64,000 bases of DNA from Eledone cirrhosa. Its lineage: Eukaryota. The notes below the pieces were generated by a model, which was not told the origin of the DNA, searched no databases, and saw only the letters and a program-made list of their open reading frames with translations. Both the position numbers and the translations under genes were made by a program. Numbering within the stretch: the stretch's first letter is position 1; each line of letters begins with the position of its first letter. This document shows positions 8,514-54,243 of the stretch, in pieces. The stretch covers positions 34,224,001 to 34,288,000 of the forward strand of contig OZ024752.1 of assembly GCA_964016885.1 (NCBI GenBank), written 5' to 3'.

Positions 8514-8832
8514 CAGAGGTTCCCAACTTTTTGTGTCCCATGCCCCACTTCAACACCTCAAACATTTTAATGCCCCACTTTGATATAAAAACAGCAATTA
8601 TCAACTACAAAGTGTAAACAAAATGGCGTATGGGTGATGTCAGATGCACAATAACATGTGTGGAAGAGGTTGGACAGGAGTTTCCGACAGTAATTTGTTC
8701 CAAAGTTGCCTTGGTGTAAAAGTAATAAGGTAAAACTTGAAGTTTGCTCTCATTAACATCATTTTCAAATTGCCACCTCGAATATTCAAATTGCTTCTCT
8801 GTGGGGCATGCACCCCACATTGGGAATCACTG
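8514..8832. mobile_element. hAT-like non-autonomous DNA transposon (MITE)
   Basis: Imperfect TIRs CAGAGGTTCCCAA / TTGGGAATCACTG; TSD degenerate. Confidence 0.55.
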
Positions 8833-9467
8833 GTCTACACCAAAAAGACTCAACTGAGAGACCAGCCATCAAAGTTGACAGCAGTATGGTAGATAAGACA
8901 ATTAAGGTAATGAAGGTAGGGGTGACAGCTGGCCCTTTGGAGATTGTTGCTGAGATTTTAAACTATCTGGTGTAGTAGGACACAGACTAGTTACTCATAC
9001 AGTAAACCAGGTAATACAGGAAGGTATTATAACAATGAGTGGTGCAGTAGCATCATTGGCAACTGCTTCAAAGGTAAAATATACTATTTTAGGGTAGAGG
9101 AACTCTTTAGTTGAGCCAATGATCAACATGCTTCCTAGTGTTGGTACTAATATAAAATGCACCCATCACACTCTGTAAAACGGTTGGCGTTAGGAAGGTC
9201 ATCCAGATGTAGAAAGCTTTCCAAACAAAGGATTGAGAGGATTCTTCATCTGTGCCAAAGACATGGCAATCAACATGAGGTAGTGTATGTGGGCAAGAAG
9301 CAGGTACCTGGTCCATCTGAAAGGTCAGTAATCCCAATTAAGTACTGACTTGACCTGACCTGTGATGACATGTCTAACCTTTTCTAGCAGGGAGAACAGA
9401 TGTACGATGATGATGCACATACATGCACTCACTCATGTACACACACACACAGACACACACACACGTA

Positions 9468-9686
9468 TATCGACAGTCGATCGACTTTCGTCAAACCGGC
9501 TCGAGGAAACAATGTTTACATTGGTCTTTCCAATCGCTAATACTATCTATCGGTCGCAACTCCAGGTAGAAGGAGCAACGTGAAATAAAGTGTCTTGATC
9601 AAGGACATAATGCATTGCCTGGTCCAGAAGTCGAACTTACAACCTCGTGATTGTGAATCCAATTTTCTAACCACTCAGCGATGCGC

Positions 9687-9690
<4 letters not shown>
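9468..9690 (-). mobile_element. tRNA-head SINE, family A2 (copies at 20590-20810 +, 49088-49310 -, partial 23520-23680 -)
   Basis: Shared body GACAGTCGATCGACTTTCGTC...GGTCGCAACTCCAGGTAGAAGG; A/B-box head GGCTGAGTAGTTAGAG...GAGTTCGATTCC in the 20590 copy. Confidence 0.85.
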
Positions 9691-9719
<29 letters not shown>

Positions 9720-9947
9720 GAAATTCTGCTCCATCAATCTCATTCCTGCTTTTTTCCTTTCCCTTTCTATACCCCTCTCATCTCATGCTTTAGACTCTCT
9801 TACTTCCTTTCTCTCAGTTCAATATATGGTTATATCTTAACCCAACTTTTTATTATATATACTACACCTACAATGTTCAGCTGTTTACAGCTACACTTTG
9901 TGCTGAGAATACAACAATTTTATGAAAATTTATATATATAAATATAT

Positions 9948-16331: not shown

Positions 16332-16692
16332 TTAGAATTGGTGTTCTGAAATAGCGATATATATATATGAATGTATATACAGTGTATTTTGCAATACACT
16401 GAATGCTTAATTAAAAGCATTTCGAAGACCTTACGCTATTGTTTTAGAGCAGTAACAGTCTCACTTACTTTAATTTTCAGCAAACAGGGGAGATAAAGCT
16501 GACAGAGCTCTGTTTCGCACTTTTTGGTGCTTATCAAAAAGTGCGAAACAGAGCTCTGTCAGCTTCATCTCTCCTGTTTGCTGAAAATTAAAGTAAGTGA
16601 GACTGTCACTACTCTAAAACAATAGCGTAAGGTCTTCGAAATGCTTTTAATTAAGCATTCAGTGTATTGCAAAATACACTGTATATACATTC
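16332..16692 (-). mobile_element. Fold-back element: 158-bp inverted arms (16369-16526 / 16535-16692) plus short tail
   Basis: Arms differ at 4 positions, 8-nt loop, flanked by (TA)n. Confidence 0.9.
16498..16537 (-). ncRNA. Hammerhead ribozyme motif, U3-A8 core variant, stem I truncated by the inversion
   Basis: UUGAUAA-GCAC-caaaaa-GUGC-GAAA-CAGAGCUCUG-UC-agc: stem II, GAAA, palindromic stem III, GUC site. Confidence 0.7.
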
Positions 16693-33981: not shown

Positions 33982-34028
33982 TGTATGTATGTATGTATGT
34001 ATGTATGTATGTATATGTGTATATATAT

Positions 34029-34265
34029 ATATTTATTAAAATAACAGATTAAAGTTTAAGCAAAGAATCGCTGCTTTCACCCTTAACGGGATCTTCTGAA
34101 ACTAACCAGTTTCAAAAGATCCCGTTAAGGGTGAAAGCAGCGATTCTTTGCTTAAACTTTAATCTGTTATTTTAATAAATATTTGCTCTACGGTTCTTAT
34201 ATATTTGATATATATTTATCCTTATCGAGCCCTCTTTGGATTTTAGTCTTCAAATTTATTATTAT

Positions 34266-44310: not shown

Positions 44311-44420
44311 ATCATACACACCCGTGTATATTTATCTATCTTACACGTTTTTATTGTATGTAAACTTCCCCCCTTTGTATTTGTCCCCTTCTTTTGTGCC
44401 CCTGTGGCTAATAAAGAAAC

Positions 44421-44454
<34 letters not shown>

Positions 44455-44474
44455 CTCTCTCTCTCTCTCTCTCC

Positions 44475-46222
44475 TCCCTTCTGTATGTGTTGACTCTCGA
44501 GCCACTACTGCGGAAGTTGGAGTTGTTGCAGGGCATCCCTTTGGAACCGGGATTGCGGAAAGCGGTGTCGGCCTACGCCGATGATGTGACAGTAATGGTG
44601 TCGACGGCCTCCGAAATCGAGGCGGTCGGCACCTTACTGGAGGAGTACGAAAAGTTCACAGGGGCTAAGCTGAACCGGGACAAGTCGATCGGTTTGCAAC
44701 TCGGCACGTGGAGGGGCAGACCGATGCCCTCCGATGGCGTCGTCGGACGCTGGACGGAGGGCCCGGTGAAGTTGCTCGGGGTCTGGTTCGGACCGGACCT
44801 CCAGGTGGAGAAAAACTGGGCGGAGGTTACGAACAGGGTGTTTGCACTGACCCAGAAGTGGGCCAGTTGCAAACTATCCCTGAAAGGTCGGGCGGAGGTG
44901 GCGAACACCTACATAGCGTCCGTCATCTACTACCGCCTGACCGTAGTGCCCTGCCCAAGGGAAACCCTCACCAAGATGGAGCGCGCGCTCTTCCAATTCC
45001 TTTGGAAGAGGCGGGCTCCTATGGTGAGGAGATCCATCTGCTGTCAACACCCTTCGAAAGGAGGGCTGGGGATGCCGTGGCTAATGATGCGTAAACACGC
45101 ATTAAGGCTACGGCACCTCTACGTATTCCTCACCGGACAACCGGTGTGGGCCTCGTTTGTGAGGCGAACCTTTCCCAGACTCGTCTCACTCACCGAGCTG
45201 CAATCCTGGGTCAAGCAAAGACCGAGAAAACTGGGCGCCTGGCACACTGAGTGTGCCCAGGCGCTCACCGCCCTCTGGCAGGCGGATCCGGTTATCAGTG
45301 GAGACTCCACCGCAACATTCTATAGAGGGCTGGTACGCAGCAGGTGCGACGACGCCCTCGGAGAAGCCCTAGACATGGAGGAGGACGAACTGGCCAGCCT
45401 GTTCGGTAGGACATTCAGCCCGGGACCTATGGACAACTTCCAGAAGTCCCTGGCCTGGCAGTGCTACCGAGGGGCTTTACCCGTTCGAGAAAGGCTCTAC
45501 AGACACGGGCGCCCGGGTAGGGACCCCGCCAAAAAGATCTGTCCCAGATGCGTGTGCGACGAGGAAACCGTTGCACACGCATTGGTACACTGCTCGGGCG
45601 TAGCCGATCTGTGGGGCTATGTCGAACAACTGCTGTCAAGGGTGGAACCGATCCGGTTGACCACCGAGTCTATTGTAATGATCAAGCCGCCTCCCCCCTT
45701 CAAAGATGAAGCAGAGGCGGTGTTTCTGTGCGTAATAGCCATGGCGAAAGAGGTTGTATGGTGGACGCGTCTGAAAGGACTGAGGTCAGGCACCTTTCTC
45801 TCTGGCCAACAACTGGTCCGTTTCTTCCGATATCATTTCGGAAGAAGGTTCAGGATGGAGAGAGAGGTGCTGCACCCCAGCCGTTTCTATGAAAGATGGG
45901 TGAAAGTGGCGAGAATGGCCCGTGTGAATGGGCCTTCACTCTACATCAGACTATAGGTGAGGAAGATGAAAGACCAAGGGAGCACCCCTTCTCTGTGCTC
46001 CTGAGGAGAAGGGTTGCACACTTTTTTCGGGGGTGTGTGCGACCCCCCAAGGCGCCTCCTCTCTATTGAGGATTTTGTTAAAAATTTTATTTTTTGTTAT
46101 ATCTTATTTTATTTTTATATTTTGTTATTGCCTCCTCCTTATTGAGGACGCCTTTTTGTGTAAACTCCCCCCTTTGTACTTGTCCCACTTTTGATGCCCT
46201 AGTGGCAAATAAAAGAAATATA
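44475..46222 (+). mobile_element. 5'-truncated L1/Tx1-clade non-LTR retrotransposon (ORF2 C-terminal half plus 3' UTR)
   Basis: GC/CpG-rich island; begins within the RT motif B region (LLYVLTLEPLL); ends AATAAAAGAAATA then TCTA/TA repeats. Confidence 0.93.
44487..45956 (+). CDS. Partial reverse transcriptase plus zf-RVT/CCHC region of LINE ORF2 (no true start; truncated)
   Basis: AYADD catalytic motif, GAKLNRDKS, KLLGVWF, KGGLGMP, CPRC...ETVAHALVHC; 489 codons without a stop. Confidence 0.9.
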   Translation: MLTLEPLLRKLELLQGIPLEPGLRKAVSAYADDVTVMVSTASEIEAVGTLLEEYEKFTGAKLNRDKSIGLQLGTWRGRPMPSDGVVGRWTEGPVKLLGVWFGPDLQVEKNWAEVTNRVFALTQKWASCKLSLKGRAEVANTYIASVIYYRLTVVPCPRETLTKMERALFQFLWKRRAPMVRRSICCQHPSKGGLGMPWLMMRKHALRLRHLYVFLTGQPVWASFVRRTFPRLVSLTELQSWVKQRPRKLGAWHTECAQALTALWQADPVISGDSTATFYRGLVRSRCDDALGEALDMEEDELASLFGRTFSPGPMDNFQKSLAWQCYRGALPVRERLYRHGRPGRDPAKKICPRCVCDEETVAHALVHCSGVADLWGYVEQLLSRVEPIRLTTESIVMIKPPPPFKDEAEAVFLCVIAMAKEVVWWTRLKGLRSGTFLSGQQLVRFFRYHFGRRFRMEREVLHPSRFYERWVKVARMARVNGPSLYIRL

Positions 46223-47714
46223 TCTATCTATATATATATATATATATATATATCATCTAATTCTGTTGTCATTCAAATGCTGTTTTTAATATTATTCATG
46301 TCCCGGGCGTTGAACTAACTAGACAAACATGATGCATGTATGTATATATGTATGGCTGGCAAGAAGTTAAAAAATTTGGTCAATTTAGCGTTAGTGATTA
46401 GTTTCGCTCTCTGCACTCTAAAATGGTCAGAAAAGTTCGATATGCGATAAACATAACATGTACATAAATATTAGCACACATACAAATAGATGTGTTTTGG
46501 TAGTTTGGGGATAAATATATAATTTTTTTTTTGGGGGGGGGGGGGGTTCCACCGCCCGCCCCTGATATATAAATAAATTAAAAGTTGTGTTGTACATGCC
46601 TCACTCGAAGCCTTTAGCGATATGATAATTAGAATCCCAAAATTGCATATAGAAACCAGAAGAGTGCCATATAAAAGATAATTGTTTCTACTTTTGGCAC
46701 AATGCCAGCAATTACCCCAGTACATTACTGGTACTTTATTTTATCGACCTCGTCAGGATGAAAGGGAAAGGATAATAATAAATTTTAATTTAGGCCCAAA
46801 GCCACCAGTTTGATGGGCGGGGAAAGTCGAATGAGTTTATTTTATCGAGCCTTAAAGGACAAAATGCAAAGCTGATTTCTGTGTTATGTGAACTCAGAAT
46901 GGAAAAAGGCCACTATATGCTGCAAAGCACTCTGTCCGACGCTCTACTGATTACAGTTAATCAACCACCCTTATATAAAGATATAATAATTATTTCTATG
47001 GTATGCTGGTATGCACAAGGCGAAATTTACAGACCCAGGCAAAAGTTAGCACGATGTTCATTCATTCTTTTCAGAGTTAAAAAAAAACAACAAAAAAAAA
47101 AAACAGAAATCGTGTGGAGTTGTGTGAACTCATAACTTTTGAGTCGTAGGGACGCCATAGTGATATTCATTGTCTTGAGCACTTTAAAACTTTAAACCCG
47201 GTGGAGCCCATCCTCCTTCTAGATCTGATCACAGCTGATTTCTTCTAGACAAGGAGAGAGAAAGTGATAGAGAGAAAGAGATATAGAGGAAAAATCGAAC
47301 CCCCCAGTACTAGACTGGTATCTTTTTTTTTTTTTTTTTTATCGACCTGGAATGGATGAAAGGCAAAGTTGACCTTGGCGGGATTTGAATTCAGAGAGAA
47401 GAGAGCCGAAATAAATACCAGAAATCATTCTATCTGACGTTCTAGCGACTGCCAATTCGTCACCCACCCCCGACATCAAGTAAAGTTAAGTAGCTTCAAT
47501 TACTTAAGGGGTTCTTAAGGAATATAGAGCACACGCCCCATAGGAGGAGGAGAGAGAGATTTTTTTAACGAATTTGATATATCAAACACGTTTTTATAAT
47601 AAGGGGTGGGTGTATCATATTTTAAGGTGTCGTGGTGGGGCATGAAGTCACCCGCCACAAAAGAAAAGAAAAACAAGAACCACTGCCTTAGAACGTCGAA
47701 CAAAATGCTTACAG

Positions 47715-48647: not shown

Positions 48648-49040
48648 TAATAATTGTTTCTACTTTTTGGCACAAGGCCAGCAATTACCCAGTACATAAC
48701 TGGTACTTTATTTTATCGACCCCGTAAGGATGAAAGGCAAAGTTAACCTCGGCGGGATTTGAACTCAGATCATAAAGGGACATAACTATGCTAGAAAGCA
48801 TGGCGTCCGACCCTCTACCGATACTGCCAATCCACCACCATTTACTACAAATGTAGTAATAATAATAATCGTTTCTACTTTTGGCACAAGGCCAGCAATT
48901 ACCCCAGTACATTACTGGTACTTTATTTTATCGACCCCGTAAGGATGAAAGACAAAGTTGACCTCGGCGGGATTTGAACTCAGAATGGAAAGGGCCGTAA
49001 CTCTATGCGTCAAAGGATGGCGTCCGACCCTCTACCGATA
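48648..49040 (-). mobile_element. Two tandem SINE B copies (more at 38610-38925, 46680-46960, 47290-47460, 52970-53070, 53465-53920, 59965-60150, 61122-61460)
   Basis: Family B core and (AAT)n tail. Confidence 0.85.
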
Positions 49041-49395
49041 CTTAATAAAAATAATGATAAGTATAGTGTGTGTGTGTGTGTATATATCGACAGTCGATCG
49101 ACTTTCGTCAAGTCAGACCGAGGAAACAATGTTTCCATTGGTCTTTCCAATTGCTAATACTATCTATCGGTCGCAACTCCAGGTAGAAGGAGCAACGTGA
49201 AATAAAGTGTCTTGCCCAAGGACATAACGCATCGCCCGGTACAGGAATCAAACTCACAACCTGACGATTGCCAATCCAATTCTCTAACCACTCATCCACA
49301 CGCCTTCACACTCACATATATGGTTTATGTGTGTGTACATATTTGATACAACCTTATAGTTACTTCATACTTGTGTTATATATGTATATATGTAT

Positions 49396-49426
<31 letters not shown>

Positions 49427-49622
49427 AGTTATCCCGGGTTCAGTCGGGAAGGTACTCAATACATAGCAGAGTATAAATGCTTAATATAGAAAAGCTTCTA
49501 CAGGACTAGAGCTGTTTCATTCGTGAGAAATCATCAGGAAGCTGACTGTCCAAGTAAATATGGACCATATTTACTTGGACAGTCAGCCTCTCACGAATGA
49601 AACAGTTCTAGTCCTGTAGAAG

Positions 49623-49625
<3 letters not shown>
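49427..49625 (-). mobile_element. Fold-back element (arms 49492-49563 / 49565-49625) plus ~65-nt tail
   Basis: 1-nt loop; right arm lacks ~11 nt; (TA)n flanks; family fragment at 55584-55630. Confidence 0.9.
49493..49543 (-). ncRNA. Complete type I hammerhead ribozyme motif
   Basis: AGCUUC-CUGAUGA-u-UUC-ucac-GAA-u-GAAA-CAG-cucuaguc-CUG-UA-GAAGCU: 6-bp stem I, canonical core, GUA site. Confidence 0.85.
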
Positions 49626-49668
<43 letters not shown>

Positions 49669-52745: not shown

Positions 52746-54243
52746 ATGTATATATATATACCAGGGTCGGCTGAAAGGTTCATAGACTGACTATGAAGGA
52801 GTGATGTTAGGGCTGTGGAATCTTGCATGCATTCATTTCAACTCTTATTAATAACTGCATTGCTTCTTTCCAGGGACTATGTTGAAAAATAAACCTCATT
52901 TGGTAATTCCATGAGAGTATCTTGGTCAGCCTATATATATGTATACACACACACACACACATACAATACTTGTTTCTACTTTAGGCACAAGGCCAGCAAT
53001 TACCCAGTGCATTACTGGTACTTTATTTTATCGACCCCGTAAGGATGAAAGGCAAAGTCAACCTCGGCGACGAATATATATAGATTCGGAGGGCAAGAAT
53101 TAAAAGCAAAGCAAATGAGACGAAAGATGTAATGGAATGCTTTAAGGAAGAAGCATCAACCATCACTTGCAGTAAAAATATTTATTCTTCTGTTCAAAGA
53201 TGCTGAGGGTTATGCTAGATTCTCAGCAATAAGTTGTTATAAAAAGGAAACGAACAAGATTACTGAAGATAAAACGTGTGCACGTGTCTATGAGCGTTTG
53301 AATGTGGAAAGTGACACACGCACGGTTCTTGTGATTGGCAGGAATATTGTAGGGGCTTATATGTTTTGGGGGAAAATCTTTTTTATTTTACCCCCCCCCC
53401 CCCCCCCCTCCAAAAAAAAATGAATAACAGGTGATAAGCTAATCGTTATTTTTTGTTTGTTTTGCTTTGTCTTCCATCCTTACCGGGGTTCGATAAAATA
53501 AAGTACCAGTAACACCCTGGAGGTTCGATGTAATTGACTTTCTCCCCCCCCCCCCCCATCCTCCCCTAAAACAAAATCGTTGGCCTTGTGCCTAAATCAG
53601 AAACCAGTATCAGTGGAGCGTCAGAAACCATGCTTGGCAGCATAGAGTTATGGCCCTTTAAATTCCGAGTCTAAAATCACGCCGAGATTAATTTTGCTTT
53701 TCATCCTTACGGGGTCAATAAAATAAAGTACCAGTAATACACTGCGTATTTGCTGGCCTTGTGCCAAAGGTAGAAATAATTATTATTAATCCCACCGAGG
53801 CTAGCTTTATCTTTCATCCTTATGGGGTCGATAAAATAAAGTACCAGTAACGCGTTGGGGTTCGGTTTAATCGACTTTCCCCTTCCCCCAAAATTGTTGG
53901 CCTTGTGCCTAAATCAGAAATCATAATCTAGACAATTGTTTGCTTGCTTTATGTGACAAAAATAAAATATATGAATATATGAAAATATTTACATAGATGA
54001 AATAATATTGATCGTTATTTTTGTTCATCTTGAATTGCAATAGTCTTAGGTAAATTTTGTGTAGTAATGAATTGCTAATCGAAGACAGGTGATGGAGAGA
54101 CAATAACAATAGCAACAACAACAACAATAGCGTGTCTTGTATTGGTAAATAATCATGTTGATTGACAGTAAAGATAAACAGACACAAGAGAAATATTCCA
54201 ATAGCAATGGCTTGTGAATGAGAACTTCAACCACCGACCCAAT

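What the first reader, a model, noticed from the sequence alone, without database searches (positions are those of the whole stretch)
49427..49625. Complete hammerhead in one arm of a palindrome; the other arm has lost the catalytic core
Seen: minus strand 49543-49493 folds as a type I hammerhead (6-bp stem I AGCUUC/GAAGCU, CUGAUGA, stem II, GAAA, stem III CAG/CUG, GUA site). The right arm is the same sequence minus ~11 nt that include CTGATGA, and it ends right at the end of stem I. Inference: only one strand could self-cleave, and the arm boundary may be tied to the ribozyme/pLTR boundary.
Basis: partly seen in the sequence, partly recalled or inferred. Interest (0 to 1): 0.72.

Follow-up and report, generated by a model that had tools for sequence, protein, structure and literature searches.

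The report
Decayed head-to-head Penelope retroelement stub
This 200-base mirror-image sequence is a damaged stub of a very common jumping gene (a Penelope-like retroelement), one of thousands in this genome; the missing ribozyme piece is likely a one-off mutation, but the family as a whole suggests that such stubs are likely made by copying the capped start of one RNA onto both ends of a cut in the DNA.

Summary
Observation confirmed: a type I hammerhead motif on the minus strand (49543-49493), a palindrome centred at 49564, and a right arm lacking 11 nt with CUGAUGA. The interpretation mostly fails. The sequence is the pseudo-LTR end of a Penelope-like element (a relative carries an intact 713-aa RT/GIY-YIG frame) sitting in (TA)n. 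The exact deletion junction occurs once in the genome, while about 4,900 loci carry two head-to-head intact cores. Short arms usually end 10-22 nt past the cut site, at the pLTR/tail border; ends at stem I are rare (11 vs 220, one strand). A transcript across the palindrome is predicted to fold as one hairpin, so neither strand should cleave. The family-level pattern is the interesting part: 53 of 90 sampled copies have an inverted partner, their 5' ends pile up at the first bases of the hammerhead, 30 nt behind a TATA box, often with an untemplated G, and both arms share variants (39 of 39). This fits two cDNAs run off one capped RNA. The architecture is published, and the scan found this same pattern before in other genomes. 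No RNA data or cleavage assay was available.

The parts
49377..49426 (.). (TA)n / (TA,TG)n microsatellite, left flank and likely target site
   Evidence: family copies sit in (TA)n
49427..49479 (-). 'Tail' of the long arm (+20 to +88 from the cut site), carrying its own 16-nt deletion
   Evidence: alignment to copy L013; in full elements this stretch runs on into the ORF
49480..49492 (-). AT-rich end of the pLTR (+7 to +19), where tail-less arms of the family usually end
49493..49543 (-). Type I hammerhead motif: stem I 49543-49538 with 49498-49493, CUGAUGA 49537-49531, stem II region 49530-49519, GAAA 49518-49515, stem III 49514-49501, predicted cut between 49499 and 49498
49544..49563 (-). 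pLTR sequence upstream of stem I (-64 to -45); truncated below the family's TATA box
49564..49564 (.). Centre of the palindrome (one A; either base -65 of the right arm or an added base)
49565..49625 (+). Inverted, tail-less arm (-64 to +6/+7) with an 11-nt deletion at 49587/49588 that removes the core; flanked in the family sequence by a TTC repeat
49626..49667 (.). (TA)n microsatellite, right flank

Best explanation
The locus is a short, head-to-head insertion of the end piece (pseudo-LTR with hammerhead, plus tail) of an abundant Penelope-like retroelement into a (TA)n run, and its right arm likely lost the ribozyme core afterwards by a private deletion with no function. Shown: family membership, target, one tailed and one tail-less arm, uniqueness of the deletion junction. 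Inferred: the element's protein cut both strands of the (TA)n target and primed two cDNAs on one uncleaved sense RNA, one from the end of the tail (+88) and one from about +10 to +22; both ran to the RNA's 5' end and were joined head to head. In most copies that 5' end is the first base of hammerhead stem I, likely the capped transcription start; in this copy it lay 20 nt further upstream. The short arm's end at +6/+7 is the low edge of the scatter or later erosion into (TA)n. The copy is predicted to be inert as a ribozyme.
For: 2,867 candidates for the left arm; 9,510 exact tail-motif matches. L262: pLTR-hammerhead, uninterrupted 713-aa frame with YRDD, linker CNC-x5-CPL-x3-C, GIY-YIG-like and C-terminal Cys/His motifs, second tail-less pLTR 5,966 nt on; Atlas neighbours 0.95-0.99 include GIY-YIG and RVT_1 clusters. 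53 of 90 tail-picked loci have an adjacent inverted arm, 51 of the 53 tail-less. 57 of 102 arm 5' ends fall in -45..-38, 4 in -61..-46. 4,925 loci with <=16 nt between head-to-head cores, 646 with 17-46 nt, controls 1 and 2. Sequence breaks at -45: 2,298; at -53: 194, mostly one satellite. TATA box 29-33 nt before stem I in 57 of 63 copies. Arms starting at stem I beside 8 A/T bases: first 100 of 245 show G 46, C (templated) 20, T 24, A 10. Both arms share the variant in 39 of 39 pairs against 13.9 shuffled, max 25. Tail-less arm reaches further 5' in 17 of 51 pairs, tailed arm in 12, equal in 22. Deletion junction 1 match. PAc extends both target strands from two internal starts that bound the tail (PMC11167929).
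Against: No RNA run was listed, so the start site, cap and cleavage are not observed. In the window's own subfamily the base before stem I is G 37, A 36, T 4 of 77, and most of these G can come from the partner arm. The control for G at another position was spoiled by a subfamily variant. The window copy itself turns at -64, not at the pile-up. The 90-locus sample is the first 91 of 9,510 matches, all from one contig, and mostly a sister subfamily. The 22-pair core count is biased by loci picked for an intact core (unbiased subset 6 of 7); L003 and L316 carry other internal deletions. Pfam GIY-YIG is below its cut-off (E 0.012) and no RT family was hit. Later deletions at the centre could mimic the 5' asymmetry.
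Confidence: 0.8

Rival explanations
1. Same element and same private deletion, but the inverted arm is made by fold-back: one cDNA self-primes at its 3' end and is copied back, as proposed for head-to-head Penelope palindromes.
For: Explains identical variants in both arms (39 of 39) and near-equal 5' ends (22 of 51); a small inverted repeat surrounds the 5' strand of stem I; self-priming on an antisense template is the published reading (PMC3846280, passages).
Against: In 17 of 51 pairs the tail-less arm holds sequence that the tailed arm lacks, up to 241 nt; 5 loci (2 of them neighbours 2 kb apart) have both arms ending in the extra G with a single A/T between them, too tight for a priming hairpin; solo tail-less copies show +19/+22 is a start in its own right.
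Confidence: 0.13
2. The two arms are copied from two separate RNA molecules bound by a protein dimer.
For: PAc is predicted to be a dimer (PMC11167929); a few pairs differ in subfamily: 2 of 81 between named subfamilies, and one junction listed.
Against: 39 of 39 common-variant pairs match (shuffled mean 13.9); this is only expected from two RNAs if one source locus dominates in each cell.
Confidence: 0.04
3. One reading: a functional asymmetric palindrome in which only one strand self-cleaves and the arm end is set by the ribozyme.
For: The left motif is complete and the right arm does stop at stem I; 23 genomic copies share that end.
Against: Deletion junction unique; both arms carry decay, including a 16-nt tail deletion; predicted hairpin sequesters the motif on either strand; stem I ends are about 5% as frequent as +15..+22 ends.
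Confidence: 0.02
4. Assembly artefact (fold-back read) at this locus.
For: No read or contig of four runs covered the junction.
Against: The arms differ by 2 substitutions and 11 nt and follow the family's tailed/tail-less rule; head-to-head joints of the family appear in independent short-read runs (tables 5 and 7).
Confidence: 0.01

Closest known systems
Endonuclease-positive Penelope-like elements with inverted pLTR and tail (Adineta vaga Pen2a, PMC3846280; Fig. 2 scheme of PMC8557442)
   Same: pLTR-ORF-pLTR, inverted 5'-truncated copy head to head, tail on one end only, TATA and Inr-like motifs in the pLTR, microsatellite target
   Different: Tail about 67-70 nt rather than 30-40; most insertions are ORF-less 200-bp stubs that turn round at the hammerhead's 5' end, in thousands of copies
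PAc (Poseidon from Anolis carolinensis; PMC11167929)
   Same: Hammerhead in the pLTR, two internal start points downstream of it that bound the tail, AT-rich target, uncleaved RNA as template
   Different: PAc's ORF starts inside the hammerhead; here the first in-frame ATG is at +137 and the protein has a Cys linker, which Penelope/Poseidon lack (PMC8557442)
Metazoan PLE hammerheads with small palindromic helix III (PMC4209133)
   Same: Type I core, short near-palindromic stem III predicted to pair as a dimer (-14.2 vs -1.8 kcal/mol); dual motifs on opposite strands 100-700 bp apart were already noted in Schistosoma
   Different: 6-bp stem I, 3-bp stem II, U.U instead of the conserved G10.1-C11.1
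L1 twin priming and cap-derived 5' G (as reviewed in PMC4859970)
   Same: Two primed cDNAs giving an inversion; untemplated G at the 5' end of copies read as the cap
   Different: In L1 the two cDNAs copy different parts of the RNA; here they overlap and make a palindrome
Non-LTR retrozymes (PMC7229834; bioRxiv 10.64898/2026.07.22.740005)
   Same: Type I hammerhead, PLE pLTR ancestry; a 78-bp tandem satellite of this very motif lies on contig C28
   Different: The window locus is a single inverted pair, not a tandem array

Membership tests
EN+ Penelope-like element | pLTR-ORF-pLTR organisation | tested here: met
   L262, two pLTRs 5,966 nt apart around the ORF; sister subfamily of the window copy; window subfamily runs into a homologous broken ORF in L031
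EN+ Penelope-like element | Single ORF with RT and C-terminal GIY-YIG endonuclease | tested here: met
   713 aa, YRDD at 347, YIGM at 602; PF01541 E 4e-4 and 0.012, both under the curated cut-off, no Pfam RT hit; Atlas neighbours 0.95-0.99 with GIY-YIG/RVT_1
EN+ Penelope-like element | Hammerhead inside the pLTR | tested here: met
EN+ Penelope-like element | Inverted 5'-truncated copy, tail at one end only | tested here: met
   53 of 90 loci inverted, 51 of 53 partners tail-less; tail longer than the published 30-40 bp
EN+ Penelope-like element | Target-site duplication | tested here: inconclusive
   both flanks are (TA)n
EN+ Penelope-like element | Spliceosomal intron near the 5' end | not testable with these tools
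   no RNA run listed
Neptune or Nematis clade | Zn-finger-like linker between RT and EN; RT phylogeny | tested here: inconclusive
   Cys linker present at 566-580; no tree, no named reference proteins at hand
Type I hammerhead ribozyme | Core CUGANGA / GAAA / NUH in a three-way junction | tested here: met
Type I hammerhead ribozyme | Compensatory change in stems | tested here: met
   63 copies: stem I pair 3 C-G 37, A-U 19, unpaired 7; pair 1 A-U 59, G-C 2. These reflect about two subfamily events, not many; none in stems II or III
Type I hammerhead ribozyme | G10.1-C11.1 pair closing stem II | tested here: not met
   U.U in 62 of 63 copies, A-U in 1; the pair is called highly conserved in PMC4209133
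Type I hammerhead ribozyme | Match to an Rfam hammerhead model | tested here: not met
Type I hammerhead ribozyme | Self-cleavage at the GUA site | not testable with these tools
   needs an assay; only 1 of 102 arm 5' ends lay at +1, so copies give no sign of cleaved templates
Non-LTR retrozyme | Tandem head-to-tail units each with a hammerhead | tested here: not met
   window locus is one inverted pair; the C28 satellite does meet it
MITE | Fixed terminal inverted repeats copied as one unit | tested here: not met
   junctions and arm ends differ from locus to locus

The most novel reading that the evidence does not exclude
This Penelope family starts its capped RNA on the first nucleotide of its hammerhead, and more than half of its insertions are twin run-off products: two cDNAs primed from both cut strands at two internal sites of one uncleaved RNA, run off the cap (leaving an extra G) and joined head to head. 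About 5,000 such double-hammerhead palindromes would be a genomic record of how Penelope elements make their inverted ends, and the ribozyme would act as a decapping switch rather than as the maker of the template's end.
Probability: 0.5. Interest if true: 0.62.

Novelty: new member of a known kind. Interest (0 to 1): 0.38.

Why it matters
The locus itself does not matter: it is one decayed copy. The family does a little: how Penelope-like elements form inverted ends and tails is stated as open (PMC8557442, PMC3846280), and here thousands of near-identical stubs plus an intact 713-aa frame make twin priming versus fold-back directly testable. The same pattern was noted by this scan in several other genomes, so it is likely general rather than special to this one.

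Tried and rejected
Rfam gave only hairpin/miRNA chance matches at the locus. No RNA holder listed, so expression and cleavage were not examined. Laying DNA reads was swamped by family copies and did not cover the junction: uninformative. PDB sequence search gave nothing. A pile-up of 5' ends at the cut site (+1), which would show cleaved templates, was looked for and not seen: 1 of 102 arm ends in pairs, 3 of 37 solo copies within -4..+5. The G control at -53 failed because G there is a subfamily variant and a satellite dominates; only its total count is used. One search used a palindromic copy as reference and crashed; replaced. L070 (wrong coordinate) was dropped; duplicate loci and the satellite stretches were dropped before the counts, and some duplicates may remain. 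Look-up of earlier findings by sequence found nothing. MITE, retrozyme and miRNA-hairpin readings were rejected (membership table).

Full report
Numbering: the A of the GUA site (window 49499) is 0; stem I 5' strand is -44..-39, CUGAUGA -38..-32.

1. Observation. It is the only descriptor hit in the window, and 40 shuffled windows gave none. The palindrome is centred on 49564. Against a real family copy the left arm (-64..+88) has a few substitutions and a 16-nt deletion in its 3' part; the right arm (-64..+6/+7) has an 11-nt deletion over the core plus one substitution. The deleted stretch lies between two TTC repeats in the intact sequence, which suggests slippage (inference). Both flanks are (TA)n. 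Weak points of the motif: 3-bp stem II with U.U at 10.1/11.1, catalytic fold about 1.3% of the ensemble, no Rfam hammerhead match.

2. What it is. The left arm has 2,867 candidate matches in the 3.0-Gb genome, the 33-nt core 365 exact matches, a tail motif 9,510. In L031, L261 and L262 the tail runs straight into a retroelement frame. L262 is complete: 5' pLTR stub with hammerhead, an uninterrupted 713-aa frame with YRDD, a Cys linker and a GIY-YIG-like C-terminus, 3.6 kb of simple-repeat sequence, and a 3' pLTR that ends without tail in (TA)n. Pfam support is weak (GIY-YIG E 0.012, under cut-off; no RT hit), but the Atlas neighbours score 0.95-0.99 and include GIY-YIG and RVT_1 clusters. This is an endonuclease-positive Penelope-like element; the Cys linker points to Neptune or Nematis (PMC8557442), untested by a tree.

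3. The deletion is likely private. The junction pattern matches once, in the window. About 4,925 loci have two exact cores head to head within 16 nt and 646 within 17-46 nt (controls 1 and 2; a few loci count twice). Of 22 pairs whose arms both reach -52, 19 keep both cores and only the window has a gap over 2 nt; that set is biased towards intact cores, the tail-picked subset gives 6 of 7. Other copies carry other deletions (L003; L316). Read-through RNA of either strand is predicted to be one hairpin of -109 or -113 kcal/mol with the core looped out, and the copy is cut off below the family's TATA box.

4. Outer arm end. In 90 loci picked by the tail motif (the first 91 of 9,510 matches, all on contig C1, mostly a sister subfamily), 53 have an adjacent inverted arm and 51 of these lack the tail; their ends cluster at +10/15 and +19..+22. 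In the window's subfamily 11 forward-strand copies end at stem I against 220 at +15..+22. So the end follows the pLTR/tail border, not stem I or the cut site. This is the published 'tail at one end' (PMC8557442, PMC3846280), which PMC11167929 ties to two internal start points of reverse transcription.

5. Inner junction. 57 of 102 arm 5' ends lie in -45..-38, 12 in -37..-30, 4 in -61..-46. Copies with a non-family base just before stem I number 2,298, against 194 eight bases upstream, most of them one satellite. A TATA box lies 29-33 nt before stem I in 57 of 63 copies selected for having one nearby. The non-family base is G in 76 of the first 100 listed; where the arm abuts 8 A/T bases, so that neither template nor flank offers a G, it is G 46, C 20, T 24, A 10 in the first 100 of 245 (a handful of these G derive from a partner arm). 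An untemplated 5' G is read as the copied cap in L1 and SVA (PMC4859970). Against: in the window's subfamily G 37, A 36, T 4 of 77, with most A explained by a self-complementary junction and most G ambiguous; the G control failed; no RNA data. The window copy belongs to the minority that turns further upstream (-64).

6. Mechanism. Both arms span the cut site, so the template was uncleaved (as for PAc in vitro, PMC11167929); only 1 of 102 arm ends lies at +1. Arms share variants in 39 of 39 pairs (shuffled mean 13.9, max 25), 55 of 81 over all types: one template molecule or one source. The tail-less arm reaches further 5' in 17 of 51 pairs, the tailed arm in 12, and they are within 5 nt in 22; fold-back of the tailed cDNA predicts a one-sided excess. 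Five of six loci inspected have the extra G on both arms with one A/T between them. I therefore favour two cDNAs, primed from the two cut strands at +88 and about +10..+22 on one RNA, run off its 5' end and joined (inferred; about 60% for this step). Fold-back (PMC3846280) with later central deletions remains the main rival.

7. Ribozyme. Stem I covaries between subfamilies (C-G 37, A-U 19; A-U 59, G-C 2 of 63), about two independent events. Stem III is predicted to pair better between two molecules (-14.2) than within one (-1.8), as for dimeric PLE hammerheads with low activity in vitro (PMC4209133). G10.1-C11.1 is absent. I call it a hammerhead motif that likely works as a dimer or with protein help in the active element; activity is untested.

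8. Known and new. The architecture is in print: head-to-head palindromes, TATA/Inr in the pLTR (PMC3846280), opposite-strand hammerhead pairs (PMC4209133), a start inside the pLTR (PMC2377424). I saw no paper reporting a pile-up of junctions at the hammerhead's first base with an extra G (searches; open library only). The scan's own notes report the same twin-primed, cap-ended palindromes in other genomes (unchecked AI notes, looked up after my reading was formed; two of them prompted the test). What I read: PMC11167929 and PMC4209133 parts 1-2 of 4; bioRxiv 10.64898/2026.07.22.740005 part 1 of 5 and passages; passages of PMC8557442, PMC3846280, PMC4859970, PMC7229834; abstract and passages of PMC2377424. 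No supplements were read; those of PMC8557442 could name this family.

9. Verdict. Real feature, ordinary locus, new member of a known kind; interest 0.38, carried by the family-level record of how these insertions form.

Noticed in passing
G000:C28 about 30.54-30.83 Mb (L274-L276, L303-L306): Tandem satellite of a 78-bp unit holding this same hammerhead (about -56..+22), present throughout all 7 stretches sampled, 86-108 motif hits per 10 kb, 38-64 units per stretch with intact core and stems. A retrozyme-like array of at least 290 kb if continuous; ends not found.
   Followed up: partly
L262 = G000:C1:14204500-14211700, minus strand: Apparently complete element with an uninterrupted 713-aa RT/GIY-YIG frame and a 3.6-kb simple-repeat stretch between ORF and 3' pLTR.
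   Followed up: partly
window 16380-16681: Near-perfect palindrome with arms of about 147 bp, each holding the GAAAC / palindromic stem III / GUC half of a different hammerhead family; the centre falls in stem II, so both arms lack CUGAUGA (weak Rfam HH9 match E 0.42).
   Followed up: partly
window 34025-34186: Palindrome with arms of about 75-79 bp from the end of another repeat; the same end follows the 3' pLTR in L262. Likely another Penelope-type stub.
   Followed up: no
window 44415-45956, plus strand: 513-aa open frame resembling the RT C-terminal half and Zn knuckle of a LINE (likeness judged by eye).
   Followed up: no
window 46678-46770, 48650-48787, 48865-49002, 52965-53102 and inverted at 53674-53784: Several copies of a dispersed SINE-like repeat around the locus.
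   Followed up: no
L031:6654-8544 and 8741-9901, minus strand: Broken frames of at least two further Penelope-like families next to the L031 element.
   Followed up: no
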